DNA of 64,000 bases from Anaerolineales bacterium (GTDB lineage: Bacteria > Chloroflexota > Anaerolineae > Anaerolineales > E44-bin32): NCBI GenBank assembly GCA_034430695.1, contig DAOUEE010000198.1:739-64738 (forward strand). The letters run 5' to 3'. Both the position numbers and the translations under genes were made by a program. A model generated the notes under the pieces. The model had not been told where the DNA came from and did not search any database. It saw only the letters and a list, made by a program, of their open reading frames with translations. Positions 1 to 42,281 of this stretch are shown here, piece after piece (the first letter of the stretch is position 1; every line of letters begins with the position of its first letter).

Positions 1-1
1 C

Positions 2-1309
2 GGCCGTCCGAGTGCGGGTTCGACGGCGCCGCTGTGGACGTTGGCGCTGGCGCTTGGTTACCGCCTGGGATTGGATCCCAGGACATGGAGCGATCTACTC
101 GGTGGGTCGCTGCTGCTTGCGACTGCCTGGGTCTGCGGACTGTGGTTCGTATATAAAACGGATAAACCACGCCGCTGGATGTTGTGGGGGGGATCGCTCG
201 TCGTCCTTGAATGGCACCTGGCATGGGCTGCGGTTTCCGGGATGGAAATCCTTGCGCTGGCTTTCGTCGCCACGTTCGTTCTCTATCGGTTGGATTGCCG
301 TCCATTTCAAGCATTCTATCTTGGTGCCGCAATCGGGTTCGGAGTCTGGATCCGGCCGGATGCGCTTTCCTTGCTTCTTCCCGTGGGTTGGACGATCCTG
401 GTTCGAGATCGCGTGACCCTGAAGAGGTTGGTGACGGACGTTGGAGGCGTCTGCCTGGGCCTTGTCATCGTGATTGTTCCGTATGGGATTTCGAACTACC
501 AACTCTCGGGAACCTGGTGGCCGAGTACTTTTTATGCCAAATCGGCCGAATATGCAGCGCTGCGCGATACTTCCATCATCACAAGATTCCTGTCGCAGCT
601 TTCGGTTCCCTTCATCGGAGCTGCCGCCGTCTTGTTGCCCGGCATCCTGATCGCTGTGCTACAGACGTGTCGAGAGAAAAGATGGGCGGAACTCGCACCG
701 CTGCTGTGGGTGATCGGTTTCCTGGCCGCATACGCCTGGCGTTTGCCGGTTACCTATCAACATGGCCGCTATGCGATGCCCGTAATTCCGGTCTTACTCG
801 TCATTGGATCGAGGGGCATGTTCGCCGTCTTGAACCTGAATTCGGACCGCATGCTGCCCAGGTTGCTTTCAAGAACCTGGCCGATGGCAGTTTGCGCGGC
901 GGCGCTGGCGTTCCTCGTGCCGGGTTCACAAGCCTACGCCCGGGATGTGGCGATCATCGAGACGGAGATGGTCCGCTGCGCGAAATGGATCGAGGCGAAC
1001 ACGGAACCGGACGCCATCGTAGCAGCACACGATATCGGCGCACTTGGCTACTTCTCCGGGCGGGATTTGTTGGACCTGGCGGGATTGATTTCCCCCGAGG
1101 TGATTCCATTCATCCGAGACGAGGACTCCATTGCGCAGTACTTGACCGACCAGCATGCAGGCTATCTCATGACCTTTCCCGGATGGTATCCGTCGCTTGT
1201 CCAACGGGCTGAGAGAGTGTATCTTACAAGAGCGAAATTCAGCCCGGATGCGGGTGGTGAGAATATGGCCGTTTACAGGTGGACATCTCATGGTTTGCTT
1301 CGTGAGTAA
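2..1309 (+). CDS. Polytopic membrane GT-C glycosyltransferase, AftB/ArnT-like (5'-truncated by the window edge)
   Basis: The frame is open from base 2 (GRPSAGSTAPLWTLAL...). Many hydrophobic segments, a loop motif IRPDA and a C-terminal HDIGALGYFSGRDLLDLAGLISP segment, all resembling GT-C arabinofuranosyltransferase-like proteins. Confidence 0.65.
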   Translation, partial: GRPSAGSTAPLWTLALALGYRLGLDPRTWSDLLGGSLLLATAWVCGLWFVYKTDKPRRWMLWGGSLVVLEWHLAWAAVSGMEILALAFVATFVLYRLDCRPFQAFYLGAAIGFGVWIRPDALSLLLPVGWTILVRDRVTLKRLVTDVGGVCLGLVIVIVPYGISNYQLSGTWWPSTFYAKSAEYAALRDTSIITRFLSQLSVPFIGAAAVLLPGILIAVLQTCREKRWAELAPLLWVIGFLAAYAWRLPVTYQHGRYAMPVIPVLLVIGSRGMFAVLNLNSDRMLPRLLSRTWPMAVCAAALAFLVPGSQAYARDVAIIETEMVRCAKWIEANTEPDAIVAAHDIGALGYFSGRDLLDLAGLISPEVIPFIRDEDSIAQYLTDQHAGYLMTFPGWYPSLVQRAERVYLTRAKFSPDAGGENMAVYRWTSHGLLRE

Positions 1310-1315
1310 TGTCTG

Positions 1316-1324
1316 TGCTATACT
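1316..1324 (+). promoter_or_regulatory. Extended -10 element (TGcTATACT) upstream of degU
   Basis: TG-c-TATACT lies just after the GT stop codon. In-frame ATGs follow at 1330 and 1354; the latter is preceded by AGGTGG. Confidence 0.55.
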
Positions 1325-1353
1325 CGCCGATGTTAAAAATAGGTGGCTCAGTT

Positions 1354-2046
1354 ATGGAGAATATCCCAGTCATCATCGTCGACGACCATCCTCTGTTTCG
1401 TGAGGGTGTACGGAACGTTCTCGATTTGGAAGATGACATCGAAGTAATCGCTGAAGGCACGAGCGGCGACCAGGCTCTCCAGCTGGTTCGAGAATTGAAG
1501 CCGCGGGTCGCACTCATCGATGTCAATCTACCGAACATGAACGGCATGCAGGTGACGCGCCAGGTATCTGCGGAACGATTGGACACCGCAGTGGTCCTCG
1601 TTACGGCGTACGATGATGTCGAACAGGTGCTGCACGCTTTTCGGGCCGGTGCGGCCGCCTATTGTTCGAAAGACGTGGAGGCGGGTAAATTGGTCGACGT
1701 AATCCGCCATGTAGCCCGCGGTTTCTTCGTAGTCGGCGATCAGGTATATGATTCATCCGGTTTGGATCAATGGCTTTCGCGTGGCGTCGAGACGGTTCGA
1801 CGCCCGCATCTGGATGGAGATGTGGAAGCTTTCACACCGCTTTCACCTCGCGAAATGGAAATCCTGCAATATGTGACGCGCGGGATGAGTAATAAGGAAA
1901 TCGCATCTCGATTGGGGATCAGCCATCAGACGGTAAAAAACCACATGACGTCGATCCTGCATAAATTGGATGTCGAGGACCGCACCCAGGCTGCGGTGTA
2001 TGCGCTTCGACATGGCTGGGTACGTCTCCAGGATACACGGAAGTAA
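1354..2046 (+). CDS. degU: NarL/LuxR-family response regulator, DegU-like
   Basis: Intact receiver (IVDDHPLFREG, LIDVNLPNMNG, YCSKD) plus LuxR HTH (LSPREMEIL...GMSNKEIA...TVKNHMTSILHKL). Adjacent to a DegS-like kinase. Start could be 1330. Confidence 0.85.
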   Translation: MENIPVIIVDDHPLFREGVRNVLDLEDDIEVIAEGTSGDQALQLVRELKPRVALIDVNLPNMNGMQVTRQVSAERLDTAVVLVTAYDDVEQVLHAFRAGAAAYCSKDVEAGKLVDVIRHVARGFFVVGDQVYDSSGLDQWLSRGVETVRRPHLDGDVEAFTPLSPREMEILQYVTRGMSNKEIASRLGISHQTVKNHMTSILHKLDVEDRTQAAVYALRHGWVRLQDTRK

Positions 2047-2058
2047 ACAGGCGCAGCG

Positions 2059-3105
2059 ATGACCGAATCAGAAGTCAAAGAACTTTCACCCCTTGAGGAG
2101 TTTCTCCAAACCTCTCGTGAGGAAGTGGAGCAAGTTCGCAGAGAGTTGAAAGAAATCAGCTTGCTCGTTGAACAGAGTCATGGGGAAGTGGAGAAGCTTG
2201 CCCAACGAAATGCCTCCATCACGGCACATTTACATCAGATGCAATCGCATTTCGAGACCGTACCGCGAGAGGACATTCAATCTACGTACGAAGCTTTTAC
2301 CGACGCACAGCAGCGTCTATTCACGATGCGCGGCCAATTGGAGAAATTACAGAGTGACGAAGCGCATTTGAAGCGATACGGTGAGTATTTGGCCAAGGCT
2401 CTGCAGGTCATCGAAGGTGGTCCCCAAGATTCAGTCATGGATTTAATGGGGGGTGGAACATCGACGATCCAACAGATCATCGAAGCCCAGGAGGATGAGC
2501 GGCGAACGATTTCACGTCAATTGCACGATGGCCCAGCGCAGGCTTTATCGAACTTCATCCTGCAAACGGAAATCGCAGTTCGTCTCTTCAACACGGATCA
2601 TGAAAAAGCCAAGGAGGAGTTGAACAACCTGAAAGCGGCTGCCGCATCGACATTCGCGCGAATTCGAGATTTCATTTTCGATTTACGGCCGATGATGTTG
2701 GACGACCTGGGATTGGTGCCGACGGCGAAGCGCTATACCGAGGCGTACAGCGAAAAGACGGGTGTCGAGGTTTCAACGGTCATTACCGGAACGGAGCGGC
2801 GCTTGGAACCGCACCTCGAAGTCCTTACGTTTCGGGCCTTACAGTCCTTGCTGCGTAACGTGCGCGACTATGCCCAGGCAACACAGGCGAAAGTCATGAT
2901 TGATATCGGTGAGCAAGAACTGAGGGTGAGTGTTGAAGACAATGGCCGTGGGGTCGATATCGAAACGATGTCGGAAGAAGATCAAAAAAAGTATGGTTAC
3001 AACACCTTAGAGGATCGTATCAATCAGGTGGGCGGTTCCCTTGAAGTTTCTAGCACTGCCGGCGAAGGTACACGCGTGGCCTATTCGATTCCTCTGGGGG
3101 CATGA
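2059..3105 (+). CDS. degS: Soluble HisKA_3 sensor histidine kinase, DegS-like
   Basis: N-terminal coiled coil resembling the DegS sensor domain (REDIQSTYE...), H-box ISRQLHDGPAQ, DLRPMMLDDLGL, HATPase DNGRG. No TM segment. Confidence 0.85.
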   Translation: MTESEVKELSPLEEFLQTSREEVEQVRRELKEISLLVEQSHGEVEKLAQRNASITAHLHQMQSHFETVPREDIQSTYEAFTDAQQRLFTMRGQLEKLQSDEAHLKRYGEYLAKALQVIEGGPQDSVMDLMGGGTSTIQQIIEAQEDERRTISRQLHDGPAQALSNFILQTEIAVRLFNTDHEKAKEELNNLKAAAASTFARIRDFIFDLRPMMLDDLGLVPTAKRYTEAYSEKTGVEVSTVITGTERRLEPHLEVLTFRALQSLLRNVRDYAQATQAKVMIDIGEQELRVSVEDNGRGVDIETMSEEDQKKYGYNTLEDRINQVGGSLEVSSTAGEGTRVAYSIPLGA

Positions 3106-3306
3106 TTCCAGGAAAATCCATTTTAGACAACGGTATCTAGACAGATTCAAACCCGATCGAGAAAGGGACGCATATTCGAGACTGGATTGAATTCAAGACG
3201 AGTGCGCGGGTGTTGAACGTGAGCGGTAGGATTTTGACGTGATACGAAGTTAGTATACGTTTTAATGTTTGAAAACCTTGGGAAATGGCATCGGAAAGAT
3301 GTCCTA

Positions 3307-3335
3307 TTGAATCGAGTTAAGGCAGTATCTATAAT
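3307..3335 (+). promoter_or_regulatory. sigma70-type promoter of flp
   Basis: TTGAAT (3307-3312), 17 bp, TATAAT (3330-3335). Confidence 0.8.
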
Positions 3336-3390
3336 TATGCGTACTAAGGCTTCAAGTTCCTAAAACCACAATGAAAAGGAGGTGAAAAAA

Positions 3391-3537
3391 ATGCTGTACA
3401 GCCCGAAGGAAAAAGGTCAGGGCCTCGTCGAATATGCTTTGATTCTTGTATTGATCGCTGTTGTCGTGATCGTTATTTTGGCGCTGCTCGGACCTGCCAT
3501 TGGAAATGTGTTCAGCAATATCGTCAGCAATATTTAA
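3391..3537 (+). CDS. flp: Flp/Fap (type IVc/Tad) major pilin, 48 aa; absent from the ORF track
   Basis: MLYSPKEKG|QGLVEYALILVLIAVVVIVILALLGPAIGNVFSNIVSNI*. Prepilin cleavage Gly with E+5/Y+6 and a hydrophobic helix. Strong SD AAGGAGGTGA at 3376-3385; directly upstream of cpaB. Confidence 0.95.
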   Translation: MLYSPKEKGQGLVEYALILVLIAVVVIVILALLGPAIGNVFSNIVSNI

Positions 3538-3542
3538 CAATC

Positions 3543-3616
3543 GTCAAGGGCGTACTATAGGGAACGCCTTGACATCGTTACAAACTGGAGGAGCCCTATC
3601 GGATGATAGGGCTCCT
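3543..3616 (+). terminator. Tandem hairpins after flp (stabiliser or terminator without a U-tract)
   Basis: GTCAAGGGCGT/ACGCCTTGAC (3543-3573) and a perfect 12-bp stem AGGAGCCCTATC-ggat-GATAGGGCTCCT (3589-3616). Confidence 0.65.
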
Positions 3617-3645
3617 GAGTGCACTGTCAGGCCTTATCTCATATT

Positions 3646-3710
3646 TGAAAGATATCTGAAAGGTTATTGTAATCAAGGTCACTTGACTTTTAACACGGAA
3701 TAGATAATAT
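3646..3710 (+). promoter_or_regulatory. Putative cpaB promoter with upstream 11-bp-period direct repeats
   Basis: TGAAAG (3646), TGAAAG (3657), TGTAAT (3668); then TTGACT (3683-3688), 16 bp, TAATAT (3705-3710). Confidence 0.45.
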
Positions 3711-3753
3711 ACGCGCACGGAAACTTAGTTTCATCACCACGAAAGGAGGCGCT

Positions 3754-4911
3754 ATGCGTGGTGGTCGAGTCATAATGCTCCTTGCCATAATCATCCTCCT
3801 CGGTGTGCTTGCTGCATACTTGATGCTTGGGGGAAATGAAGAAGCTCCCCCAACTGAAGGTGAAGGCGTCGTTCAACCCGGATTGTCTGCAGATATGGTA
3901 TACGTCGTCGTAGCCGGGCAAGACATTTCACGCGGTTCGATCATCCCGGAGCAAGATGGTGTCGTCGTCTCCCAAATGCCGAGAGATTTGGTCATCGAGA
4001 CGATGATCAGTGGTGAAGATGAAGACGAACTCAAGTCTCGGGTTGTTGGGCGTAGGGCACGGATGGACATCGCTCGCGGGCTATTTATCACCGAAGGTAT
4101 GCTGACGGACAAGCCGGGTGATCTGCTTGGCATAGGTTCCGATGCCGCAATGGCGATCGAACCAGGATACACTGCGATCTCCATTCCGTGGCACCGGATT
4201 TCCGGCGTTGCTTTTGCACTGCGAGCCGGTGATCAGGTCGATGTTTTGATCAGCTTTTTGATCGTCAGCGTCGATGCGGATTTCCAGACCGAATTACCAA
4301 ACGAAACGACGGCCATCAGTGCTTTGGGCGGTATCCCACAGCAATTCGGTCCACACGTTACGGTACCCATCAGCCCTGGAATAGAGGATCCAACGAGACG
4401 GCAGGAGGGTGAATACTGGCCGTACGGGCGTGTCGAGAGCGAACCGGAGCTGGGTCTGCCCATTCACGTGATTCCCCAGGAAGCGCAACGGCCACGATTG
4501 GTATCCCAGCGCCTGATTGAAAACGCTACGGTGCTTAAATTCGGTAATTTCTCGACCGCTGACATTCTCGGTGAAGAAGTCCAGATGGTGGAAGTCCCTG
4601 AAGGTGAGGAAGCCACTACGGAGAACGTCACGGAAAGCGTGCCAGACATCATTACTCTCATCGTCACGCCACAAGATGCTTTGGCTTTGAACTGGGCGGT
4701 TAAAGCGGGAGCGGATCTCGTTTTGACGCTGCGTTCGCCGGACGATACCACTATCACGGAGACGAGCAGTATCACACTGCAATATCTGCTGGATAATTAC
4801 AACATTACCGTGCCGGCTAAACTACCTTACGCATTGACACCGGCAATTGAGGCGCCGATCATTCCTTTCATCGATTATGAGGTTACAGTTCAAGGGGAAG
4901 GTGCGCAGTAG
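3754..4911 (+). CDS. cpaB: Flp pilus assembly protein CpaB/RcpC (SAF domain)
   Basis: N-terminal TM anchor, SAF-like VVVAGQDISRGSII, RcpC-like GYTAISIP...LRAGDQVDVL, C-terminal ITLIVTPQDA...LVLTLRS. Confidence 0.85.
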   Translation: MRGGRVIMLLAIIILLGVLAAYLMLGGNEEAPPTEGEGVVQPGLSADMVYVVVAGQDISRGSIIPEQDGVVVSQMPRDLVIETMISGEDEDELKSRVVGRRARMDIARGLFITEGMLTDKPGDLLGIGSDAAMAIEPGYTAISIPWHRISGVAFALRAGDQVDVLISFLIVSVDADFQTELPNETTAISALGGIPQQFGPHVTVPISPGIEDPTRRQEGEYWPYGRVESEPELGLPIHVIPQEAQRPRLVSQRLIENATVLKFGNFSTADILGEEVQMVEVPEGEEATTENVTESVPDIITLIVTPQDALALNWAVKAGADLVLTLRSPDDTTITETSSITLQYLLDNYNITVPAKLPYALTPAIEAPIIPFIDYEVTVQGEGAQ

Positions 4912-4957
4912 GGGATCTTAGCAATATATAAGGGTTGGTTGTTACTCGGAGGACCAT

Positions 4958-6178
4958 ATGTCTGAAAACGCGGAAGGATCAATCCGCGTACTTATCGTTG
5001 ATGATATTGCAGAAACACGTGAAAATATCCGAAAATTGTTACAGTTCGAATCGGATATCACTGTAGTTGGTGCTGCGGTAAGTGGGCAGGATGCACTCGA
5101 GTTAGCCCGCGAAAAAGACCCTGATGTCGTCGTGATGGACATCAACATGCCCGACATGGATGGCATCACTGCGACGCAAGAGTTATTAAAAGACGTTCCC
5201 TACGCACAGATCGTCATCTTATCCGTTCAGAGTGAAGCCGATTACATGCGCCGGGCGATGCTTGCTGGCGCAAGAGACTTCATCGCCAAACCTCCCTCTG
5301 GTGACGAGTTGATTTCCACGATTCGTTCACTTGCGGCACGAGCGCAAGAACAGCGGAAATCGTTGGAAAGACCGGCGCCCCATGTCGTGCAACCGGTGCC
5401 CGGAATGGGCTACGCCCTGCCAGAAGGAAAGTTGATCGCTGTGTACAGCGCGAAAGGCGGTGTAGGCTGTACGGTCTTGGCGACGAACATCGCCTTGGGC
5501 TTGCAAACGGAAGAAACGCCAACGGTGCTGGTGGATACTGCGCTGCAGTTCGGCGACGCAGCCGTATCGCTGAACCTGCAGGTCAAGTTCAGCTTTGCGG
5601 ACGTCTCTACGCGAGCCGACGAGGTCGATCCGGAAATCCTCGGGGAGATTCTTTTAAGTCACGAGAGTGGTCTGCGAATTCTTGCGGCGCCGCCGCGGCC
5701 TGAAATGGCGGATGAGGTGAACGCCGAACAAGTACGCAAAGTGCTGCAGCATCTTCGCAGGCAGTTCGCCTACGTTATCGTCGACATGAGTTCTAACATG
5801 GATGACGTTGCGCTTGCCGTAATGGACGCAGCTGATTTATTGGTCGTCGTAACCGTACCGGAAATACCATCAATCAAGGACGCACGACTGTTGTTCGATT
5901 TGTTGACCGTCCTCGAGTTCCCTAAAGACAACGTATTTTTCGTATTGAATAAAATGGACCGTAAATCCGGCATAACACCAGAGGCCGTGGAGGAGAATCT
6001 GAATTACTCGGTGAACGGCGTCATTCCGTTTGATGAACGTGCAGTCTCGACGTCCGTCAATCGCGGCGTCCCACTCATGATATCGGATCGTGGCTCATCA
6101 GTCGCGAAAAGCATCATCGATATACTGGGAGCATTGAAAGAGAAATTGATCGAGATGGAAAAGGTTGTTGAAGAATAA
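4958..6178 (+). CDS. cpaE: CpaE/TadZ: receiver domain plus ParA/MinD-like ATPase fold
   Basis: Intact receiver (VDD, MDINMPDMDG, FIAKP). Degenerate deviant Walker A KGGVGCT, DTALQFGD, YVIVD. Position within the Tad cluster. Confidence 0.9.
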   Translation: MSENAEGSIRVLIVDDIAETRENIRKLLQFESDITVVGAAVSGQDALELAREKDPDVVVMDINMPDMDGITATQELLKDVPYAQIVILSVQSEADYMRRAMLAGARDFIAKPPSGDELISTIRSLAARAQEQRKSLERPAPHVVQPVPGMGYALPEGKLIAVYSAKGGVGCTVLATNIALGLQTEETPTVLVDTALQFGDAAVSLNLQVKFSFADVSTRADEVDPEILGEILLSHESGLRILAAPPRPEMADEVNAEQVRKVLQHLRRQFAYVIVDMSSNMDDVALAVMDAADLLVVVTVPEIPSIKDARLLFDLLTVLEFPKDNVFFVLNKMDRKSGITPEAVEENLNYSVNGVIPFDERAVSTSVNRGVPLMISDRGSSVAKSIIDILGALKEKLIEMEKVVEE

Positions 6179-6238
6179 TCGTACCGCTGATGCAAATGGG
6201 TTGGGTTTGTTGAGTGCGATTTTTAGGAGAGTGCTACT

Positions 6239-7648
6239 GTGTCGCTATTAAAAAGGATTGAGCAAGGGCAAGCGGAAGCACCATCCAGCGCTAGCAGCAA
6301 TCCCCCCGTTGGGGGAGGTACCGGACGGCTGTCGGGGTTGAATGCTCGCCGTGTCGCGCCACCACGCTCAGCGCAAAGAGATACCTATTACGACCTGAAA
6401 ACACGCGTTCAGAACAAGCTCCTGGCTGAACTGGATCCTTCCATGGACGTAAGCCAGACGGCCGAAGTCCGCAGAACGATCGAGGAGCTGTTCGAGAATA
6501 TATTGGCCGAGGAAAAGATCGTACTTTCCCGGCCGGAACGACGGCGGCTCTTCGAGCAGATCGTGGCCGAGATTCTCGGCCTGGGGCCGCTCGAACCGCT
6601 CCTTGCAGACGATACGATTACAGAAATCATGGTCAACGGGCCAAAACAGATCTACATCGAGCGCAAAGGTAAACTGCACCGGGAACCCGCTTCCTTCGAA
6701 AGCAGTGACCATCTCATGCGCATCATCGACCGCATCGTGGCTCCACTGGGCAGGCGCATCGACGAATCCAGTCCCTATGTAGATGCCCGCCTTCCGGATG
6801 GATCGCGTGTGAACGCGGTCATCCCGCCGATATCGCTTGTTGGACCTACGCTTACCATCCGAAAATTCTCACGTGACCCGATTAGCGTCAATCAATTGGT
6901 CGAGTTCGGCACGTTGACGCCCGAGTCGGTTGAATTCCTAAAGGCATGCGTGATTTCGGCTATCAATATCGTTATCTCCGGAGGTACTGGCTCCGGTAAG
7001 ACGACGCTGCTGAACGTACTCTCTCAGTTCATCCCCACTGACGAGCGCATCGTAACGATCGAAAATGCGGCCGAGCTTCAATTACGGCAGGAACACGTTG
7101 TCACGCTGGAGTCGAGGCCGCCCAACATTGAAGGTCGCGGCGAGGTAACCATTCAAAACCTGGTTGTAAACTGCTTGCGTATGAGGCCGGACCGGATCAT
7201 CGTCGGTGAGATCCGTGCGGAAGAATCGTTGGACATGCTTCAGGCGATGAACACCGGTCACGAGGGCTCGATGACGACGGCTCACTCGAACAGCCCGCGC
7301 GATACACTGGCACGTATCGAAACAATGACCCTGATGGCCGGGATGGATTTTCCTGTACGGGCGATCCGCGAACAGATCGCCTCCGCGATGGAACTCGTAG
7401 TGCATCTGGAAAGACTCCGCGACGGTACGCGTAAAGTAACCCACATCTCAGAGATTCAGGGGATGGAAGGTGACGTCATCACGATGACAGACCTTTTCGT
7501 CTTCGAGCAAACGGGATTCGAGGATGGCCGCGTGATTGGAAGGTTGCGGCCGACTGGACTCCGACCTAAATTTATTGATAAGATTGAGACATCCGGGATT
7601 CATCTGCCGGCGACGATCTTTGGTGTTGGTGGAAAGCGCGGGTACTAA
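6239..7648 (+). CDS. cpaF: Tad pilus motor ATPase CpaF/TadA
   Basis: Walker A GGTGSGKT, IENAAEL, RMRPDRIIVGE, His boxes MNTGHEGSMTTAHSN. Confidence 0.95.
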   Translation: MSLLKRIEQGQAEAPSSASSNPPVGGGTGRLSGLNARRVAPPRSAQRDTYYDLKTRVQNKLLAELDPSMDVSQTAEVRRTIEELFENILAEEKIVLSRPERRRLFEQIVAEILGLGPLEPLLADDTITEIMVNGPKQIYIERKGKLHREPASFESSDHLMRIIDRIVAPLGRRIDESSPYVDARLPDGSRVNAVIPPISLVGPTLTIRKFSRDPISVNQLVEFGTLTPESVEFLKACVISAINIVISGGTGSGKTTLLNVLSQFIPTDERIVTIENAAELQLRQEHVVTLESRPPNIEGRGEVTIQNLVVNCLRMRPDRIIVGEIRAEESLDMLQAMNTGHEGSMTTAHSNSPRDTLARIETMTLMAGMDFPVRAIREQIASAMELVVHLERLRDGTRKVTHISEIQGMEGDVITMTDLFVFEQTGFEDGRVIGRLRPTGLRPKFIDKIETSGIHLPATIFGVGGKRGY

Positions 7649-7651
7649 CCA

Positions 7652-8635
7652 ATGAATTCAAATCTGATCCTGATGATAGGATTGGGGCTTGGATTGCTCC
7701 TGCTGCTCATCGGAATCGCCTCATCTGTATTTGGAAGAGGCTCGATTGTTGAAGAGCGGCTTGGGCAATATTCCGAGACGGGTCAATTAAGTTACGGAGG
7801 CGAGGTCAGCGCTGAAAAGGAGCGCGACAGATCGACGCCCGTCTCGGACTTCTTCAACCGTATGGGGGAAGGAACGGACCTATTTGATGGGATCTCGAAG
7901 AATCTCGCACGCGCAGACATAAAACTCCGACCGGCGGAATACATTGCGGGCATCTTTATCTGCGGCGTCGTCGTCGCCGCGCTCGGCTTTTTTGCCACCG
8001 GCCAGAGTATATTTTTAGCTATCGTGTTCTTCTTCGTCGGACTGCTCATCCCGCGTTTCTATGTGAAACTCGCGCAAGGCCGGCGATTGAAATCGTTCGA
8101 CAACCAGCTATCCGACATGATCAATCTGATGGTCAATGGCCTGCGGGCTGGTTTTTCCACGCTGCAGGCGATGGAATCAGTCAGTCGCGAATTGCCCTCT
8201 CCGATCTCCGATGAATTTCGACGCGTCGTCCAGGAGGTGCAGTTGGGCCTCACGATCGAAGATGCTCTCGAGCATCTCCTTCGCCGTATCAGCAGTGACG
8301 ACCTCGACCTGGTGATTACAGCGATCAACGTTCAACGAGAGGTCGGTGGTAACCTGGCTGAAATTCTAGACACGATTTCACACACGATTCGCGAGCGTGT
8401 GCGTATTAAAGGCCAGATTCAGGCATTAACTGCACAGGGCCAGGCAACGGGCTGGGTCATCGCGGCATTGCCCTTTGCCCTGGCGGGGATATTGTTTTTA
8501 GTGAATCGTGAATACATCATGGTGCTCTTCGCGCCGGAGACCAGGGGATGTGGTATTCCGATGGTCATCTTGGCGTTTTTGATGATCGTCTTCGGCATGA
8601 TCGCCATCCAGAAAATTGTTAATATTGACATTTAG
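7652..8635 (+). CDS. tadB: Tad platform membrane protein TadB (T2SSF family)
   Basis: QLSDMINLMVNGLRAGFS, QREVGGNLAEILD...IRER motifs; TM segments. Confidence 0.9.
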   Translation: MNSNLILMIGLGLGLLLLLIGIASSVFGRGSIVEERLGQYSETGQLSYGGEVSAEKERDRSTPVSDFFNRMGEGTDLFDGISKNLARADIKLRPAEYIAGIFICGVVVAALGFFATGQSIFLAIVFFFVGLLIPRFYVKLAQGRRLKSFDNQLSDMINLMVNGLRAGFSTLQAMESVSRELPSPISDEFRRVVQEVQLGLTIEDALEHLLRRISSDDLDLVITAINVQREVGGNLAEILDTISHTIRERVRIKGQIQALTAQGQATGWVIAALPFALAGILFLVNREYIMVLFAPETRGCGIPMVILAFLMIVFGMIAIQKIVNIDI

Positions 8636-8747
8636 CGATCGATAATTGAATACGAGTTTGACGGTATGATGAAAGTTATTCTCGATGTTGAAAGTAGGCG
8701 TAATGCCCACGGGATGTTGTCCGCACGAGCGATCGAGGTGATTTGAC

Positions 8748-9689
8748 ATGAATCCGTTGGTGATATTGGTCATTGTCGTTGTCGTCGTCGTCTTTGCGAT
8801 CGCCCTGGTCATCGCAGGCATCAAGGCACCGCAAGCCAGCGATCCCATTTCGGACCGCCTGGCGGAATATTCTGCAAGCGACATACCGCTAACGCTTGAA
8901 GACCTCGAACTATCCCAGGGTTTCTTCGAACGAATTATCTTGCCTATGTTCAATAAAATAGGCAATATTGCCTCGCGCTTCACACCGCAGGCAACGCTCG
9001 AGAACGCACGAAACCGAATCGAGATGGCGGGCAACCCTATGCAATTGGATCCCGCATTCTTCTTGGTCCTGCGGGTGATTGTGGGCGTCTTGTTCGGTGG
9101 AGCGATCTTCCTCGTTTACACTTCGTCGGGCAGGAACTGGCTGCAAGGCCTGGGATTGTCTGTGCTTTTCACCGCTCTCGGGTTTTACTTTCCAGACTTG
9201 TGGTTGACGAGCAAGATTAAATCGAGGCAAAAGGCGGTATTTCGCGCCTTACCCGATGCGCTCGATTTGCTCAACGTCTGTGTCGAGGCGGGGCTTGGTT
9301 TTGATGCCGCTATGGGGAAAGTCCACGAGAAGTGGGAGGACGATCTCTCTATGGAGTTCGGTCGTGTGCTTCAGGAGATTCGACTGGGAAAATTGCGCCG
9401 GGAAGCGCTGCGCGACTTGTCCGACCGAGTCGATGTGCCCGAACTGACTTCCTTCATCGCCGCCGTCATCCAATCTGAACAGTTGGGCGTGAGCATGGCG
9501 AAGGTTCTTCGTATTCAATCCGACCAGATGCGAACCCGCCGGCGTCAACTCGCGGAGGAGGAGGCCGGTCGTGCACCGATCAAGATGGTGTTCCCCATCG
9601 GCTGTCTCATCTTTCCATCGATTTTGATTTTACTGCTCGGGCCTGCTGCTCTGACCCTGATGACCTCTGCCTTGGCTGGCATCTTCTAA
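8748..9689 (+). CDS. tadC: Tad platform membrane protein TadC
   Basis: LPDALDLLNVCVEAGLGFD, QSEQLGVSMAKVLRIQSDQMR, KMVFP motifs. Confidence 0.9.
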   Translation: MNPLVILVIVVVVVVFAIALVIAGIKAPQASDPISDRLAEYSASDIPLTLEDLELSQGFFERIILPMFNKIGNIASRFTPQATLENARNRIEMAGNPMQLDPAFFLVLRVIVGVLFGGAIFLVYTSSGRNWLQGLGLSVLFTALGFYFPDLWLTSKIKSRQKAVFRALPDALDLLNVCVEAGLGFDAAMGKVHEKWEDDLSMEFGRVLQEIRLGKLRREALRDLSDRVDVPELTSFIAAVIQSEQLGVSMAKVLRIQSDQMRTRRRQLAEEEAGRAPIKMVFPIGCLIFPSILILLLGPAALTLMTSALAGIF

Positions 9690-9724
9690 TCAAATCGTAC
9701 GGGAATGCAACTAGAGGGGGTTTA

Positions 9725-10456
9725 TTGCCGCGCACGATTTTCAACCGATGTAGACGTCTATCGAAACGAGCGCTGGATTCCTGCCTAGATATATTCTTTC
9801 CGCCGTATTGTGTGGGATGCGGCCGACAGGGGGAAATCTGGTGCCAGGATTGCGTTCAAGAGATTGAACCCATTTCCGGTCGACTCTGCCCTTCGTGCGG
9901 ATTGCCTTTGATTTCGACAATGCAGTGTGGTTCATGCCGCTCAGAGGAGCTTCCCTTTCATGCGCGCTCTTATGCCTGGTATCGAGGGCCAATTTGTCGG
10001 GCTTTGGTGCAGTTGAAGTACCGGCCGGACCGACGCTTGTCCGACTGGCTGGCTAATCGGCTGATAGAGATCGTCTCTAGAGAAGCATGGCCGAGCATGA
10101 CGGTAGTTCCCGTACCCTTAAGCCGAAAAAAATTCAATCGAAGAGGGTATAATCAAGTGGACTTGATTGCTTCCGGCGTGGCTCGGAAACTAGGGCAACC
10201 CTATCGAGCTTCTGCACTCCGTCGGATTCGGGATACACGCTCTCAAGTAGGTCTTTCTCCCGATGCCCGCAGACGGAACGTGCAAGGAGCTTTTAGAGCA
10301 GACAGCCGGAAAGTACGTGGGAAAAACATCTTGATCATCGACGATCTGTTCACAACGGGTGCAACTCTGTTGGCATGTACTCAGGCTTTGCGGAGCGCTG
10401 GCGCGGAGCTTGTGTTTGCGCTTACCGTTGCGCGCGCCAATCATGCTGATTTCTAA
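9725..10456 (+). CDS. comF: ComF(C) family protein (double zinc ribbon plus PRTase-like domain)
   Basis: FPPYCVGC...WCQDC...CPSC...CGSC, VPVPLS, RGYNQ, ILIIDDLFTTGATL. TTG start after GAGGGG. Confidence 0.9.
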   Translation: MPRTIFNRCRRLSKRALDSCLDIFFPPYCVGCGRQGEIWCQDCVQEIEPISGRLCPSCGLPLISTMQCGSCRSEELPFHARSYAWYRGPICRALVQLKYRPDRRLSDWLANRLIEIVSREAWPSMTVVPVPLSRKKFNRRGYNQVDLIASGVARKLGQPYRASALRRIRDTRSQVGLSPDARRRNVQGAFRADSRKVRGKNILIIDDLFTTGATLLACTQALRSAGAELVFALTVARANHADF

Positions 10457-10482
10457 GCTATTACATACTAAGAGGATATTTG

Positions 10483-11052
10483 ATGACCATAAAAGTGATG
10501 ATTAACGTCAAAGATATGGATTTAAGCGATCGTTTACAAGATTACATTACGAAGAAAGTAGAAAAGTTGGATCGTTATCTCGATATTCTCCAGGAGGCGA
10601 AGGTCGATTTGCAGTATGTGAAATCTGCCAGAAATGCAAACGATCGTCAGGTCGTTCAGCTTACCGTGCGGGGAAAAGGCGTGCTGCTGCGCGCCGAAGA
10701 GCGCACGGATGATATTTTTGCTTCCGTAGATGCAGTCATGGATAAAGTGTATCGACAAATCGAACGGTACAAAGGCCGACGATGGCGCGGCCGGGGAGAT
10801 GGACGTTCGGCTTCCGATCTCGCCATGGATCTATCCAACTCACCTGAATCAGGAATAGAAGCGGAAGGCACCATCGTGCGGCGGAAGCGTTTTATCCTAA
10901 CCCCGATGGACGAATTGGAAGCGATCGAGCAAATGAGCCTCGTTGGTCATGAAGACTTCTTCATATTTCTCAACGCTGAAAGCCGTTCGATTAATGTGCT
11001 CTACCGGCGCCGAGATGGAACGCTTGGCTTGATCGAACCCGAGATCGACTGA
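10483..11052 (+). CDS. hpf: Long ribosome hibernation promoting factor (HPF/RaiA)
   Basis: ITKKVEKLDRYL, DIFASVDAVMDKVYRQIERYK; C-terminal dimerisation domain PMDELEAIEQM...FFIFLN...INVLYRRRDG. Confidence 0.92.
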   Translation: MTIKVMINVKDMDLSDRLQDYITKKVEKLDRYLDILQEAKVDLQYVKSARNANDRQVVQLTVRGKGVLLRAEERTDDIFASVDAVMDKVYRQIERYKGRRWRGRGDGRSASDLAMDLSNSPESGIEAEGTIVRRKRFILTPMDELEAIEQMSLVGHEDFFIFLNAESRSINVLYRRRDGTLGLIEPEID

Positions 11053-11120
11053 AAATCTCGAACCGTTACCGCAGCTGATGATCCTTCATCTGCCTGCATG
11101 ACTCTGCGCCCGGAATTTCA

Positions 11121-12263
11121 ATGTCTACGTTTCCCGTTATCATTATGATGTCACCGGTCGGCAGTTCTCCAGCCGAGGGTTGGGTCGCCCAAGGGCGTCG
11201 AGCGGCCGCATGCGATCTGGTCCAACGATTGGGCCAAGTTCGATGCGTGGGGGAAGTCTTCGTGCTTGCAGCCGATCCAATGGACCGCAAAGCCCTAGTT
11301 CAGCTCGGTGCGGTCCCGCTGGCATCATCTGCCGGAACGTTCCACTTCGGACGAAGTCTGGCGAAAATCATCCTGGAAAACCATTTCCAGCAAATTGGAT
11401 ACTTCGGGGGTGGAAGTGCGCCGTTGATGACGGAGGGCATGCTGCAGGAAGTCTTCGACCGGATGGATCATTTGGGAAAGCCCTCTGCCCTGGTAAACAA
11501 CTACCACTCAACGGACTGGATGGTGTCCAATCGGGGGGATGTTTTTTCCCGGATTCAGGATCGCTTGGAAACGGATAACTCACTCGGTTGGGTCCTGGCT
11601 CAGCAGGTCGATTTCGAGGTCCAAGCCGCAGATTTCGGGGCTGCGAGCCGGGTCGATATCGATACACCGACCGATCTGCTGATGCTGCATCGGCATCCAT
11701 CGTTGGGGGAGGCCCTCGAGGGGTTCATCCAGGCCGCTCCGCCCGAGAATCTGGACAAGGTCGATAATTTACTTGATGTCATGAGCACGCCTGCCAGCAC
11801 CCTCACGCTGATCGGTAGGACGTCCCCTCATGTTTGGAAAACCCTCAACGATCGAACACAGATCTGGGTTCGCGCATTCGCTGAGGAGCGCGGCATGATC
11901 GCCAGCCGGCGGTTCGAACGGGGGGAAGTTCGCTCGCTGGTTGGAGAGATGCTGGAGGATTGGGGAGTTCAGCGATTTGTGGATTTTATCACAAACCTTT
12001 CGGACGGCGTTCTCTGGGATACACGTGTCTGGATGGCGCATCGAGGTCGATGGCCTTCTTCAGGAGATCGATTTGCCTCGGATCTGGGCTGGGTGGATGC
12101 TGTCCAGGATGAGGCGCTGAAAAGGCTCACGCAAGCCGTAAGCCAATCCGACGTGCCGATTCTCTTGGGGGGACATTGCGTCGTTGCCGGGGGGATTTAC
12201 GCTTTATTGGAATCTCGAAAAAAAACAGATTACCAACCTTCGAGGAAGGATCGCCAGTCCTGA
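11121..12263 (+). CDS. Hypothetical protein with a CofC/FbiD-like (GT-A/nucleotidyltransferase) N-terminal fold and an unknown C-terminal domain
   Basis: DIDTPTDL motif, GGGSAPL and NNYHSTD in positions matching CofC-like motifs. ~180-aa C-terminal extension unassigned. Confidence 0.5.
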   Translation: MSTFPVIIMMSPVGSSPAEGWVAQGRRAAACDLVQRLGQVRCVGEVFVLAADPMDRKALVQLGAVPLASSAGTFHFGRSLAKIILENHFQQIGYFGGGSAPLMTEGMLQEVFDRMDHLGKPSALVNNYHSTDWMVSNRGDVFSRIQDRLETDNSLGWVLAQQVDFEVQAADFGAASRVDIDTPTDLLMLHRHPSLGEALEGFIQAAPPENLDKVDNLLDVMSTPASTLTLIGRTSPHVWKTLNDRTQIWVRAFAEERGMIASRRFERGEVRSLVGEMLEDWGVQRFVDFITNLSDGVLWDTRVWMAHRGRWPSSGDRFASDLGWVDAVQDEALKRLTQAVSQSDVPILLGGHCVVAGGIYALLESRKKTDYQPSRKDRQS

Positions 12264-12733
12264 TTTTCGGGTAAGTGCGTGCCGTAGAGATACAAAGCGC
12301 TGGCGATGGGTTCTTGGGGTTCTCGCAGCAGATTCATATGCGCTGCCTGTAAATTCCGTCCGCCTTTCTTGAGATTGCACGCTTCGCAGGCCGTGACGAG
12401 GTTGTTCCAACTGTATTCTCCCCCCTGGTGGCGTGGAACGACGTGATCCAACGTCAAGCGATGGGAGCGCATGCCGCAGTACTGGCATCGATAATCATCA
12501 CGCCGAAAAACTTCGCGTTTCGTCAGGCGTACGCGTGGACGAGGCCGTTTCACCATGTAATCCAGGCGGATCACCGAGGGGCGAGGAATTTTCTGCCGCA
12601 CGGTCCGGATGAAGCCGCGGCCGTTCAACAGCATCTCCGCTTTTCCTGCCATGAGCAATCCAAGGGCTCTGCGTGTATTGCACACGTTCAACGGTGCGTA
12701 GTTCGCGTTGAGCAGAAGCACTGGTTCGTTCAT
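12230..12733 (-). CDS. HNH endonuclease
   Basis: VLLLNANYAPL N-terminus; RDDYRCQYCG, LTLDHVVPRHQGG, NLVTACEACNLKKG. Confidence 0.9.
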   Translation of the reverse strand: MNEPVLLLNANYAPLNVCNTRRALGLLMAGKAEMLLNGRGFIRTVRQKIPRPSVIRLDYMVKRPRPRVRLTKREVFRRDDYRCQYCGMRSHRLTLDHVVPRHQGGEYSWNNLVTACEACNLKKGGRNLQAAHMNLLREPQEPIASALYLYGTHLPENQDWRSFLEGW

Positions 12734-12803
12734 TCATTCAGCCTCGAATAATGGCGGATTATATCATTATCTGTTCCACTTCGCATTCTCGAGGCTTCAC
12801 GAC

Positions 12804-12841
12804 AAAAAAGCCTGGCGAAATCACACTCTACGCCAGGCTTT
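12804..12841 (-). terminator. Intrinsic terminator of the phnDCE operon
   Basis: 11-bp stem AAAGCCTGGCG/CGCCAGGCTTT followed by a U run on the minus strand. Confidence 0.85.
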
Positions 12842-12860
12842 CGGGAACGAATGGCATTAC

Positions 12861-42133: not shown

Positions 42134-42281
42134 TCCGGGCGCTCCATTTGGGATGATTTCCCGGTCGATGGCAGTCTAGCATAAAGCGATACGAGGGGCA
42201 AGAAGTGGACCGGGTCTCCGTTTGGAATCGCGAATCCACGATGCTATAATGCTCGAAGTCTTTATTTCCTCCGAGGCGCAG

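What the first reader, a model, noticed from the sequence alone, without database searches (positions are those of the whole stretch)
1354..11052. degU-degS / Tad pilus / comF / hpf locus: candidate DegSU-linked Tad competence system
Seen: degU-degS, flp-cpaB-cpaE-cpaF-tadB-tadC, comF and hpf lie on one strand, with only 35 bp between tadC and comF. Known: in Bacillus subtilis degSU precedes comFA-FB-FC and, after flagellar genes, hpf; Tad pili mediate natural transformation in Micrococcus luteus. Inference: a conserved degSU...comF-hpf neighbourhood here encloses a Tad machine rather than flagellar genes, so DegSU may control a Tad pilus used for DNA uptake in Chloroflexota. Prepilin peptidase and TadE/G pseudopilins are absent from the window.
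Basis: partly seen in the sequence, partly recalled or inferred. Interest (0 to 1): 0.75.

Follow-up and report, generated by a model that had tools for sequence, protein, structure and literature searches.

The report
Regulated Tad pilus operon carrying comFC
An Anaerolineae (Chloroflexota) genome carries a two-component regulator, a Tad/Flp pilus machine, the DNA-uptake gene comFC and the ribosome-hibernation gene hpf as one gene block that is conserved across the class, which makes "the Tad pilus takes up DNA" a testable idea but does not show it.

Summary
On the + strand lie a NarL-type response regulator, a soluble DegS-like kinase, flp, cpaB, REC-cpaE, cpaF, tadB, tadC, a ComFC-type comF and a long hpf. 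The tadC-comF gap is 35 nt.

The block is not a one-off. In a comF-centred survey of species representatives, 19 of 26 informative Chloroflexota loci have tadC directly upstream of comF, against 1 of 51 loci from other phyla. Hpf follows in nearly all of them. The regulator-kinase pair lies upstream in 11 of 17 testable loci. Four of six kinase-centred look-ups show the same block.

New details:
- CpaE carries a canonical phospho-receiver domain.
- The flp promoter has a conserved operator-like block centred near -40.
- A conserved hairpin follows flp.

Limits:
- The Tad cluster itself is already published for Anaerolineales, as an adhesion pilus.
- comFC-hpf(-secA) is an old pair that persists where the Tad cassette is missing (L004, L027).
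- The "DegS" label rests on a marginal coiled-coil domain match, and orthology to Bacillus DegS was not shown.
- No comEC, comEA, dprA, prepilin peptidase or pseudopilin gene is in the window.

A DNA-uptake role is plausible but untested.

Verdict: a real, conserved, regulated Tad-comFC-hpf operon. The competence reading is only partly supported.

The parts
41..1309 (+). Multi-pass membrane protein, GT-C glycosyltransferase-like. It is the last gene of an array of GT87/PMT_2-type genes seen upstream in relatives. It probably does not belong to the core block.
   Evidence: Weak NCBIfam match to a putative glycosyltransferase. Homologues sit in the same position in L015, L057, L082, L084 and L086, where the upstream genes hit GT87/PMT_2. 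It is absent upstream of the regulator in L017, L026 and L043.
1354..2046 (+). NarL/LuxR-family response regulator (REC + GerE HTH), 'DegU-like'.
   Evidence: Pfam Response_reg 92.8 bits and GerE 78.5 bits. The best PDB relatives are VraR and NarL. Orthologues are 52-60% identical and lie next to the kinase in 8 loci.
2059..3105 (+). Soluble histidine kinase: coiled-coil DegS-like sensor domain + HisKA_3 + HATPase_c.
   Evidence: 8 of 10 orthologues hit PF05384. JGI names the family DegS. The family is small and appears restricted to Anaerolineae.
3291..3335 (+). flp promoter. A conserved 19-nt block, TCGGAAAgAtGTCCTATTG (3291-3309), holds an imperfect palindrome, AAGATGtCCTATT, centred about 40 nt upstream of the predicted start. 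It overlaps the -35 TTGAAT; a 17-nt spacer separates that from the -10 TATAAT (3330-3335). This is a candidate activator site.
   Evidence: Promoter scan. Alignment of the otherwise unalignable intergenic regions. The block occurs once per locus in window, L082, L084 and L086. That the regulator binds here is inference.
3391..3537 (+). Flp prepilin, 48 aa, with the G/XXXXEY processing motif.
   Evidence: Orthologues are present in 1-3 copies in related loci.
3543..3616 (+). Two stem-loops downstream of flp. The second (3589-3616) carries the invariant stem GCCCTATC...GATAGGGC. Likely an attenuator or stabiliser that sets the ratio of pilin to machinery.
   Evidence: Fold z-score -5.1. Every flp locus examined has a strong hairpin, several of them followed by U-tracts. 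The exact motif occurs once each in window, L015, L060, L082, L084 and L086, with 0 expected by chance.
3754..4911 (+). CpaB/RcpC-like pilus assembly protein: N-terminal membrane anchor, SAF and RcpC domains.
   Evidence: TIGR03177 above its cut-off.
4958..6178 (+). CpaE/TadZ-type ParA/MinD ATPase fused to a canonical phospho-receiver (REC) domain.
   Evidence: Pfam REC 98.7 bits plus ParA/AAA_31. The DD, the phospho-acceptor D (MDINMP), S and KP residues are conserved in the window protein and all 18 aligned orthologues. It is 33% identical to the REC domain of the neighbouring regulator.
6239..7648 (+). CpaF/TadA pilus ATPase.
   Evidence: T2SSE 212 bits and TIGR03819 346 bits. Orthologues are 60-76% identical.
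7652..8635 (+). TadB platform protein.
   Evidence: T2SSF 77.5 bits.
8748..9689 (+). TadC platform protein.
   Evidence: T2SSF 58.1 bits.
9725..10456 (+). ComFC-type ComF: double zinc ribbon + PRPP-binding phosphoribosyltransferase fold.
   Evidence: Pfam DZR_2 and Pribosyltran. NCBIfam GntX/ComF scores are below the cut-offs. The Cys residues and the DDxxTTGAT motif are invariant. It starts 35 nt after tadC, behind a Shine-Dalgarno sequence.
10483..11052 (+). Long-form ribosome hibernation-promoting factor.
   Evidence: Pfam S30AE plus its C-terminal domain. TIGR00741 69.9 bits, above the cut-off of 40.9. It starts 26 nt after comF.
11121..12263 (+). Conserved hypothetical protein with a CofC/FbiD-like nucleotidyltransferase N-domain. 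It forms the tail of the block in the closer relatives.
   Evidence: No Pfam, NCBIfam or PDB sequence hit. 691 homologues; the few that carry an organism name are Anaerolineales MAGs. AlphaFold2 pLDDT 90. Foldseek hits to Rv2983/FbiD and CMP-Kdo synthetases. It holds the same position in L060, L082, L084, L086 and L090.

Best explanation
This is a monoderm-type Tad/Flp (type IVc) pilus operon of an Anaerolineae bacterium. A dedicated two-component system lies upstream, and comFC and hpf ride on its 3' end.

Likely mechanism:
1. The soluble DegS-like kinase phosphorylates the NarL-type regulator.
2. The regulator activates the flp promoter through the conserved palindromic block at about -40.
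3. A hairpin after flp lets only part of the transcripts continue into cpaB-cpaE-cpaF-tadB-tadC. A second promoter-like site lies before cpaB.
4. The canonical receiver domain on CpaE/TadZ adds a post-translational, phosphorylation-dependent switch on assembly. Its kinase is unknown.
5. comFC and hpf, and in this clade a nucleotidyltransferase-like gene, are co-transcribed with tadC and so are made whenever the pilus machinery is made.

The pilus is certainly a surface filament. Adhesion and aggregation is the published role. Because comFC is operonically tied to it across the class, the same pilus most plausibly also delivers DNA to the ComEC/ComFC uptake route, for transformation or for nutrition.

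Shown: gene content, conservation of the order, short or overlapping spacers, and the conserved cis elements.

Inferred: regulator binding, phosphorylation of CpaE, co-transcription, and any DNA-uptake role.
For: - Gene identities.
- Conserved block: 19 of 26 informative Chloroflexota comF loci against 1 of 51 from other phyla. Four of six kinase-centred look-ups show the full block.
- In a ComF neighbour-joining tree, the Tad-linked loci spread over the whole Chloroflexota ComF clade and the unlinked ones are nested within it. This points to an old linkage with later losses.
- The estimated tadC-comF spacer is 50 nt or less in 12 of 19 measurable loci, counting the window. The two genes overlap by 4 bp in L090 and by about 2 bp in L010.
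- The scan finds no terminator-like site in the tadC-comF or comF-hpf spacers.
- The regulator-kinase pair stays with the Tad genes when the upstream glycosyltransferase array is replaced by unrelated divergent genes.
- Conserved promoter block and post-flp hairpin.
- Canonical REC residues in every CpaE orthologue.
- Literature: the same flp-cpaBEF-tadBC cluster is conserved and highly transcribed in Anaerolineales (PMC4877987). Chloroflexales and Litorilinea have no type IV filament system other than Tad (PMC7332563, PMC13319060). A ComEC-type protein was found in every Chloroflexi strain analysed (PMC6299819). Tad pili mediate DNA uptake in Micrococcus luteus and Liberibacter crescens (PMC4322843, PMC8513845).
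- In a Dormiibacterota MAG, comF lies between Tad genes and a second Tad-type ATPase.
Against:
- A promoter inside tadC cannot be excluded. comF-hpf evidently has its own promoter where Tad is absent (L004).
- The regulator-kinase pair is not found in the flank of 6 of 17 Tad-comF loci, and family members occur away from Tad genes.
- The palindrome is clear only in four fairly close genomes. More distant loci keep only TCCTATTG.
- comFC-hpf adjacency is conserved in lineages without any Tad link, so adjacency alone is weak evidence for a shared pathway (PMC5069739).
- No other competence gene lies in the block or in the 64-kb window.
- The operon's tail gene has a nucleotidyltransferase-like fold, not that of a known DNA-uptake protein.
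- High constitutive transcription in digesters fits an adhesin better than a competence organelle (PMC4877987).
Confidence: 0.6

Rival explanations
1. Neighbours by descent only. The Tad pilus is purely an adhesion, aggregation or motility organelle. comFC-hpf is the ancient Terrabacteria comFC-hpf(-secA) unit, which happens to lie downstream. Read-through co-expression has no functional meaning, and ComFC does its usual cytoplasmic job independently of the pilus.
For: - comF-hpf-secA occurs without Tad genes in Rubrobacterales L022.
- comFA-comFC-hpf occurs in streptococci (PMC5069739).
- In L004 the flanks are the same as in L003/L006/L008, but the whole flp-tad cassette is missing while comF-hpf stays.
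- L027 keeps the regulator, flp and comF-hpf but has lost the machinery genes.
- The published interpretation of the cluster is adhesion (PMC4877987, PMC9942424).
- No other com gene is present in the block.
Against: - The order, strand and tight spacing are kept at ComF identities of 34-48% across two NCBI classes. Start-stop overlaps occur in L010 and L090. That degree of conservation usually reflects selection for co-expression.
- In a Dormiibacterota MAG, comF is again flanked by Tad genes, including an extra Tad ATPase between comF and hpf.
- The Chloroflexota examined so far have no alternative type IV filament for DNA uptake, although ComEC is universal among them (PMC7332563, PMC6299819).
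Confidence: 0.3
2. One reading: a true DegS-DegU orthologue, inherited together with comF-hpf from the common ancestor of Bacillota and Chloroflexota, controls a Tad machine whose main purpose is natural competence. In this model the Tad genes occupy the place that flagellar genes hold in B. subtilis.
For: - The DegS-type architecture is present in 8 of 10 orthologues, and the JGI KO-based name is DegS.
- In Bacilli, degU and hpf are also only a few genes apart: Listeria degU is lmo2515 and hpf is lmo2511 (PMC5491136).
- In B. subtilis, comFC lies just upstream of flgM (bioRxiv 10.1101/2025.07.11.664319).
- B. subtilis DegU regulates both motility and competence (same preprint).
- The regulator-flp-comF-hpf remnant in L027.
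Against: - The sensor-domain match is marginal and coiled-coil driven.
- No Bacillus-type DegS appeared among the 150 best of only 317 representatives.
- The order of kinase and regulator is inverted, and there is no ComFA and no yviA.
- Two Clostridia comF loci in the survey have no NarL-type regulator nearby.
- NarL-type pairs are numerous, so chance adjacency is not negligible.
- Family members occur away from Tad and comF.
- There is no evidence that competence is the pilus's main role.
Confidence: 0.1

Closest known systems
Tad/Flp pilus cluster of Anaerolineales (pilA/flp-cpaB-cpaE-cpaF-tadB-tadC; Xia et al. 2016, PMC4877987; also PMC9942424)
   Same: The six genes and their order are the same. 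It is the same lineage. The cluster is reported as conserved and highly transcribed, and flp-less clusters were reported as silent.
   Different: Those papers do not mention the flanking regulator-kinase pair, the receiver domain on CpaE, or the comFC-hpf genes attached downstream (no occurrence of 'competence' or 'two-component'). They read the pilus as an adhesin only.
Tad-pilus-dependent DNA uptake in Micrococcus luteus (PMC4322843) and Liberibacter crescens (PMC8513845)
   Same: A Tad/Flp machine in an organism without a classical competence pilus, combined with ComEC/ComF-type uptake genes.
   Different: In those organisms the role is shown by mutants. In L. crescens comF lies at a separate locus (PMC8513845), and the M. 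luteus papers that the search returned do not mention comF. Here the tie is genomic (one operon) and nothing has been tested experimentally.
Bacillus/Listeria degS-degU ... comFA-(comFB)-comFC ... hpf-secA neighbourhood
   Same: A soluble HisKA_3 kinase with a DegS-type N-domain, a NarL-type regulator, ComFC and a long HPF lie within about 10 kb on one strand, with surface-appendage genes in between in B. subtilis.
   Different: The order of regulator and kinase is inverted. There is no ComFA, ComFB or YviA. Tad genes stand in place of flagellar genes. Orthology of the kinase is not demonstrated. The Bacillus gene order is partly from the literature (PMC5491136, PMC4685060, bioRxiv 10.1101/2025.07.11.664319) and partly from my own knowledge.
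TadZ/CpaE with an atypical receiver domain (Eubacterium rectale TadZ structure; Caulobacter CpaE)
   Same: A ParA/MinD-type ATPase with an N-terminal receiver-like domain, encoded just before the Tad ATPase.
   Different: Here the receiver keeps all the phosphorylation residues. It is probably a real response regulator rather than a degenerate localisation domain. The comparison with E. rectale TadZ is from my own knowledge and was not tested here.

Membership tests
Tad/Flp (type IVc) pilus system | Flp-type prepilin with the G/XXXXEY processing motif and a hydrophobic core | tested here: met
   The sequence reads KG|QGLVEYALILVLIAVVV. Pfam Flp_Fap gives E 4.9e-7, slightly under the gathering score. 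Orthologues are conserved.
Tad/Flp (type IVc) pilus system | TadA/CpaF ATPase, the two single-domain platform proteins TadB and TadC, and a TadZ/CpaE ParA-like ATPase | tested here: met
Tad/Flp (type IVc) pilus system | Dedicated prepilin peptidase (TadV/CpaA, family A24) and TadE/F/G pseudopilins | tested here: not met
   None among the large ORFs of the 64-kb window, nor in the called genes of the 14-21 kb loci fetched for L082, L084, L086 and L090. One relative has a TadG-like gene inside the cluster (L035). They may be encoded elsewhere in the genome, which could not be searched.
Tad/Flp (type IVc) pilus system | Outer-membrane secretin RcpA/CpaC (diderm versions only) | tested here: not met
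   Absent from the window. This fits a monoderm-type cluster; Chloroflexota are regarded as monoderm (PMC13319060).
DegS-DegU two-component system | Cytoplasmic kinase without transmembrane segments: DegS N-terminal domain + HisKA_3 + HATPase_c, paired with a NarL/GerE-type regulator | tested here: met
   The DegS-domain score is marginal (29.9 bits against 27.6), and the region also hits coiled-coil families.
DegS-DegU two-component system | Orthology to Bacillota DegS/DegU (closest relatives include Bacillus DegS; gene order degS then degU) | tested here: inconclusive
   The gene order is inverted. The 150 best of 317 sensor-domain representatives are all 375 aa or shorter, and the ten sampled are all metagenome-derived; the only organism names among them are Anaerolineae. 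No Bacillus sequence was available for a reciprocal comparison.
ComF (ComFC/GntX) family | N-terminal Cys4 zinc ribbon(s) plus a type I phosphoribosyltransferase fold with a PRPP loop | tested here: met
   Pfam DZR_2 42.5 bits and Pribosyltran 35.9 bits. Invariant Cys residues and DDxxTTGAT. NCBIfam ComF (106 bits against 233) and GntX (115 bits against 304) fall below their cut-offs.
Natural-competence DNA-uptake machinery | ComEC channel, ComEA receptor and DprA in the same genome, plus dependence of DNA uptake on the pilus | not testable with these tools
   None of these genes is in the window, and the rest of the genome could not be searched. The literature reports a ComEC-type protein in every Chloroflexi strain examined (PMC6299819).
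Long HPF (ribosome hibernation-promoting factor) | S30AE domain plus the C-terminal dimerisation domain | tested here: met
   (TIGR00741 above its cut-off).

The most novel reading that the evidence does not exclude
In Chloroflexota, which seem to have no type IV filament other than Tad, the Tad pilus is the DNA-uptake organelle. ComFC is a working part of that machine, coupled to the TadB/TadC/CpaF platform. The whole unit is switched by a DegS/DegU-like system that descends from the same ancestral 'DegSU - surface appendage - ComF - Hpf' supra-operon that survives in Bacilli with flagellar genes in the appendage slot.
Probability: 0.15. Interest if true: 0.8.

Novelty: new variant of a known kind. 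Interest (0 to 1): 0.5.

Why it matters
Anaerolineae are among the most abundant bacteria in digesters, sediments and activated sludge. Their Tad pilus is one of their most highly transcribed features, yet how it is controlled, and any role beyond adhesion, is unknown.

A class-wide operon that ties the pilus to ComFC, a dedicated two-component system and a phosphorylatable TadZ gives concrete hypotheses that can be tested by mutation:
- how piliation is switched on;
- whether these organisms take up DNA, for transformation or as food, through a Tad pilus.

If DNA uptake were confirmed, Tad-mediated uptake would extend to a third phylum. It would also provide the first case in which a cytoplasmic uptake factor is built into the pilus operon.

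Even if it is not confirmed, the conserved promoter block and post-flp hairpin are useful handles for studying gene regulation in a phylum with almost no genetics.

Tried and rejected
- Known RNA elements, such as a c-di-GMP riboswitch ahead of flp or cpaB: no credible Rfam hit in 1-13000.
- The idea that the post-flp hairpin is a dispersed repeat: rejected, because it occurs once per locus and once in the 64 kb.
- The idea that its sequence conservation proves a protein operator: not adopted. Other lineages keep a hairpin with a different sequence, which fits a terminator or attenuator.
- The idea that the regulator-kinase pair belongs to the upstream glycosyltransferase array rather than to Tad: rejected, because the pair stays with Tad where the array is missing.
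- The idea that the 380-aa tail gene might be a hidden DprA-like or DNA-handling protein: rejected by structure prediction and fold search, which give a CofC/FbiD-like nucleotidyltransferase fold.
- A direct comparison with B. subtilis DegS/DegU: no Bacillus sequence could be fetched. The sensor-domain search returned no hit of Bacillus DegS length and no named hit outside Anaerolineae.
- A search for the promoter block elsewhere in the loci, to find a regulon: no further copies.

Full report
**1. What is there**

The region 1354-11052 holds ten genes, all on the + strand.

- A NarL/LuxR-type response regulator lies at 1354-2046.
- A soluble histidine kinase lies at 2059-3105. Its N-terminal coiled-coil region matches the Pfam DegS sensor domain just above the gathering score (29.9 against 27.6 bits). 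HisKA_3 and HATPase_c domains follow.
- A 48-aa Flp prepilin lies at 3391-3537 and carries the G/XXXXEY motif.
- Then come CpaB, a CpaE/TadZ ATPase fused to a receiver domain, CpaF, TadB and TadC.
- A ComFC-type ComF follows (double zinc ribbon plus phosphoribosyltransferase fold), then a long HPF.

The spacers are short. Regulator to kinase is 12 nt, cpaF to tadB 3 nt, tadC to comF 35 nt and comF to hpf 26 nt. Both the tadC-comF and the comF-hpf spacers hold a Shine-Dalgarno sequence and no terminator-like site.

Pfam scans of the remaining large ORFs of the window found no prepilin peptidase, TadE/F/G, secretin, ComEC, ComEA or DprA. The source is an Anaerolineales-like MAG.

**2. Is the arrangement conserved?**

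I aligned 32 ComF homologues and scanned one genome per species for relatives, with 10-kb flanks. I then located homologues of every window gene in the 80 loci with tblastn.

- Of the 26 Chloroflexota loci with enough upstream sequence, 19 have cpaE-cpaF-tadB-tadC directly upstream of comF on the same strand. Hpf lies directly downstream in 18 of those 19.
- These genomes are labelled Anaerolineales, Anaerolineaceae, Ardenticatenaceae and Promineifilaceae, so they span two NCBI classes. Their ComF proteins are only 34-48% identical to the window's.
- Among the 51 loci from other phyla, only one shows Tad genes beside comF, a Dormiibacterota MAG (L079). Its order is flp ... cpaF-tadB-tadC ... 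DUF192-comF-(second Tad-type ATPase)-hpf-secA.
- The estimated tadC-comF spacer is 50 nt or less in most loci. The two genes overlap in L010 and in L090.
- A rough ComF tree puts the Tad-linked loci all over the Chloroflexota clade, with the unlinked ones nested among them. The linkage looks old and occasionally lost.

**3. The two-component system**

The regulator-kinase pair lies directly upstream of flp or cpaB in 11 of the 17 Tad-comF loci whose flank reaches far enough. In six loci (L003, L006, L007, L008, L009, L063) other genes occupy that position.

Kinase-centred look-ups give the mirror view.
- Four homologues show the full block. Their identity to the window kinase is 61-66% over the full length for three of them, and 34% over the sensor domain for the fourth.
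- Two more distant family members sit in unrelated contexts (L088, L089).

Where the upstream array of GT-C-type glycosyltransferase genes is replaced by divergent housekeeping genes, the pair still precedes the Tad genes. The pair therefore goes with the pilus and not with the array.

How good is the 'DegS' label?
- 8 of 10 orthologues hit the Pfam DegS domain, and JGI's annotation calls the family DegS.
- The match is marginal, however, and lies in a coiled-coil segment that also hits crescentin-like families.
- The sensor domain finds only 317 representatives among 1.84 billion proteins.
- The gene order is regulator then kinase, the opposite of B. subtilis degS-degU.

I therefore call the pair 'DegSU-like in architecture'. 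Orthology is open.

**4. Regulatory anatomy**

*The flp promoter.* The kinase-flp spacer is unalignable between relatives except for three things: a -10 box, the ribosome-binding site, and a 19-nt block, TCGGAAAnAnGTCCTATTG.
- The block overlaps the -35 hexamer.
- In L084 and L086 it forms a perfect palindrome, AATAGGtCCTATT. The window has 2 mismatches to it.
- It is centred about 40 nt upstream of the predicted start.
- It occurs once per locus and nowhere else in the fetched sequence.
- Its position and symmetry are those of a class II activator site for a dimeric helix-turn-helix protein. The adjacent regulator is the obvious candidate, but that is inference.
- More distant loci keep only TCCTATTG.

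*The hairpin after flp.* A strong hairpin follows flp in every locus examined, and several are followed by U-tracts. In six loci spanning both classes the stem is the invariant GCCCTATC...GATAGGGC. This looks like the usual attenuator or stabiliser that gives more pilin than machinery. A second promoter-like site precedes cpaB.

*The receiver domain of CpaE.* It keeps the acidic pair, the phospho-acceptor aspartate, the Ser and the Lys-Pro in the window protein and in all 18 aligned orthologues, including those without a neighbouring kinase. It is most similar to CheY-type and NarL-type receivers. It is therefore probably a true response regulator acting on pilus assembly. Its kinase is unknown.

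**5. What the pilus is for**

The flp-cpaB-cpaE-cpaF-tadB-tadC cluster of Anaerolineales is already in the literature. It is described as conserved and very highly transcribed, and is interpreted as an adhesion and aggregation pilus (PMC4877987, PMC9942424). Those papers do not mention the flanking genes.

Arguments for a DNA-uptake role:
- the class-wide operonic tie to comFC;
- the Dormiibacterota case;
- the apparent lack of any other type IV filament in the Chloroflexota studied (PMC7332563, PMC13319060);
- a ComEC-type protein in every Chloroflexi strain analysed (PMC6299819);
- the precedents of Tad-dependent DNA uptake in Micrococcus luteus and Liberibacter crescens (PMC4322843, PMC8513845).

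Arguments against:
- comFC-hpf is an old pair in its own right. It occurs as comF-hpf-secA in Rubrobacterales and Dormiibacterota and as comFA-comFC-hpf in the streptococcal SigX regulon (PMC5069739).
- The pair survives where the Tad cassette is absent. In L004 the same SPFH-gene flank that precedes flp in L003, L006 and L008 abuts comF directly. In L027 only the regulator, flp and a short ORF remain before comF.
- No other competence gene is in the block.
- The operon's tail gene has a nucleotidyltransferase-like N-domain of unknown function.

The best NCBIfam hit of the ComF protein is GntX, 'DNA utilization protein'. This is a reminder that uptake could serve nutrition rather than transformation.

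**6. The deep-synteny idea**

In Listeria, degU (lmo2515) and hpf (lmo2511) are four locus tags apart (PMC5491136). In B. subtilis the order degS-degU-yviA is implied by PMC4685060. comFC lies just upstream of flgM (bioRxiv 10.1101/2025.07.11.664319). The rest of the Bacillus order is from my own knowledge.

The resemblance is therefore real at the level of domain architectures. I could not show that the kinases are orthologous. The two Clostridia comF loci in the survey have no NarL-type regulator nearby. I rate common descent of the whole neighbourhood as possible but unlikely to be demonstrable from these data.

**7. Verdict**

The best-supported reading is a regulated, monoderm-type Tad pilus operon onto which comFC and hpf are transcriptionally grafted. 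DNA uptake is a plausible second function of the pilus.

The title claim, a 'DegSU-linked Tad competence system', is only partly supported. The linkage is real, the DegSU identity is soft, and competence is untested.

On novelty: the Tad cluster is known. The conserved tie to comFC-hpf, the dedicated two-component system, the phosphorylatable TadZ and the two conserved cis elements appear to be undescribed in the library searched.

Noticed in passing
window 11121-12263 (+): A 380-aa conserved hypothetical protein directly after hpf. It has 691 homologues, and the few that carry an organism name are Anaerolineales MAGs. It has no Pfam, NCBIfam or PDB sequence hit. The AlphaFold2 model is confident (pLDDT 90). 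Its N-terminal ~210 residues have the fold of CofC/FbiD guanylyltransferases and CMP-Kdo synthetases. The C-terminal domain is unassigned. The gene holds the same position in L060, L082, L084, L086 and L090.
   Followed up: yes
window 41-1309 (+); L082/L084/L086 1-9300: In close relatives, the regulator is preceded on the same strand by an array of 5-6 large membrane proteins that hit GT87, PMT_2 and DUF8201 (GT-C-type glycosyltransferases). The window starts inside the last of them. They could glycosylate the envelope or the pilin. More distant relatives lack the array.
   Followed up: partly
window 12230-12733 (-): A 167-aa HNH endonuclease whose HNH domain resembles that of IscB/Cas9. It converges on the 380-aa gene and overlaps its 3' end by 34 bp. 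It keeps that position in L082, L084 and L086.
   Followed up: no
window 38987-42133 (-): A second receiver-ParA/MinD-like fusion protein (40985-42133) sits in a run with a Sir2-family gene (40197-40988) and a GAF-HisKA kinase (38987-40279). A large Cache-HAMP-GAF-PAS kinase is encoded divergently (42222-45593). This genome therefore uses REC-ParA fusions more than once.
   Followed up: no
L079 8479-14038 (Dormiibacterota MAG): The order is DUF192 - comF - a 378-aa Tad-type ATPase lacking the N-terminal domain - hpf - secA, with cpaF-tadB-tadC about 2 kb upstream. The short ATPase is 60% identical to the window CpaF, closer than that locus's own cpaF (44%).
   Followed up: partly
L004 6740-9343; L027 1-1907: Two natural 'deletion' states. 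L004 has the SPFH-gene flank joined directly to comF-hpf, with no Tad genes. L027 has the regulator, flp, a 109-aa ORF of unknown nature, then comF-hpf, with no kinase and no machinery genes.
   Followed up: partly
window 3593-3612; L015 4916-4935; L060 769-788; L082 11392-11410; L084 11564-11582; L086 11369-11387: The post-flp hairpin keeps an identical 8+8-nt stem sequence (GCCCTATC/GATAGGGC) across genomes whose proteins are only 40-50% identical. Other lineages have hairpins of different sequence. The half-site ATAGG/CCTAT also occurs in the promoter palindrome. Whether a protein reads both sites is unknown.
   Followed up: partly
L010, L017, L018, L026, L043, L049 (kinase-cpaB spacers): In these loci no flp gene was detected between the kinase and cpaB, so the pilin gene must lie elsewhere. 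Xia et al. (PMC4877987) reported that flp-less clusters were transcriptionally silent.
   Followed up: no
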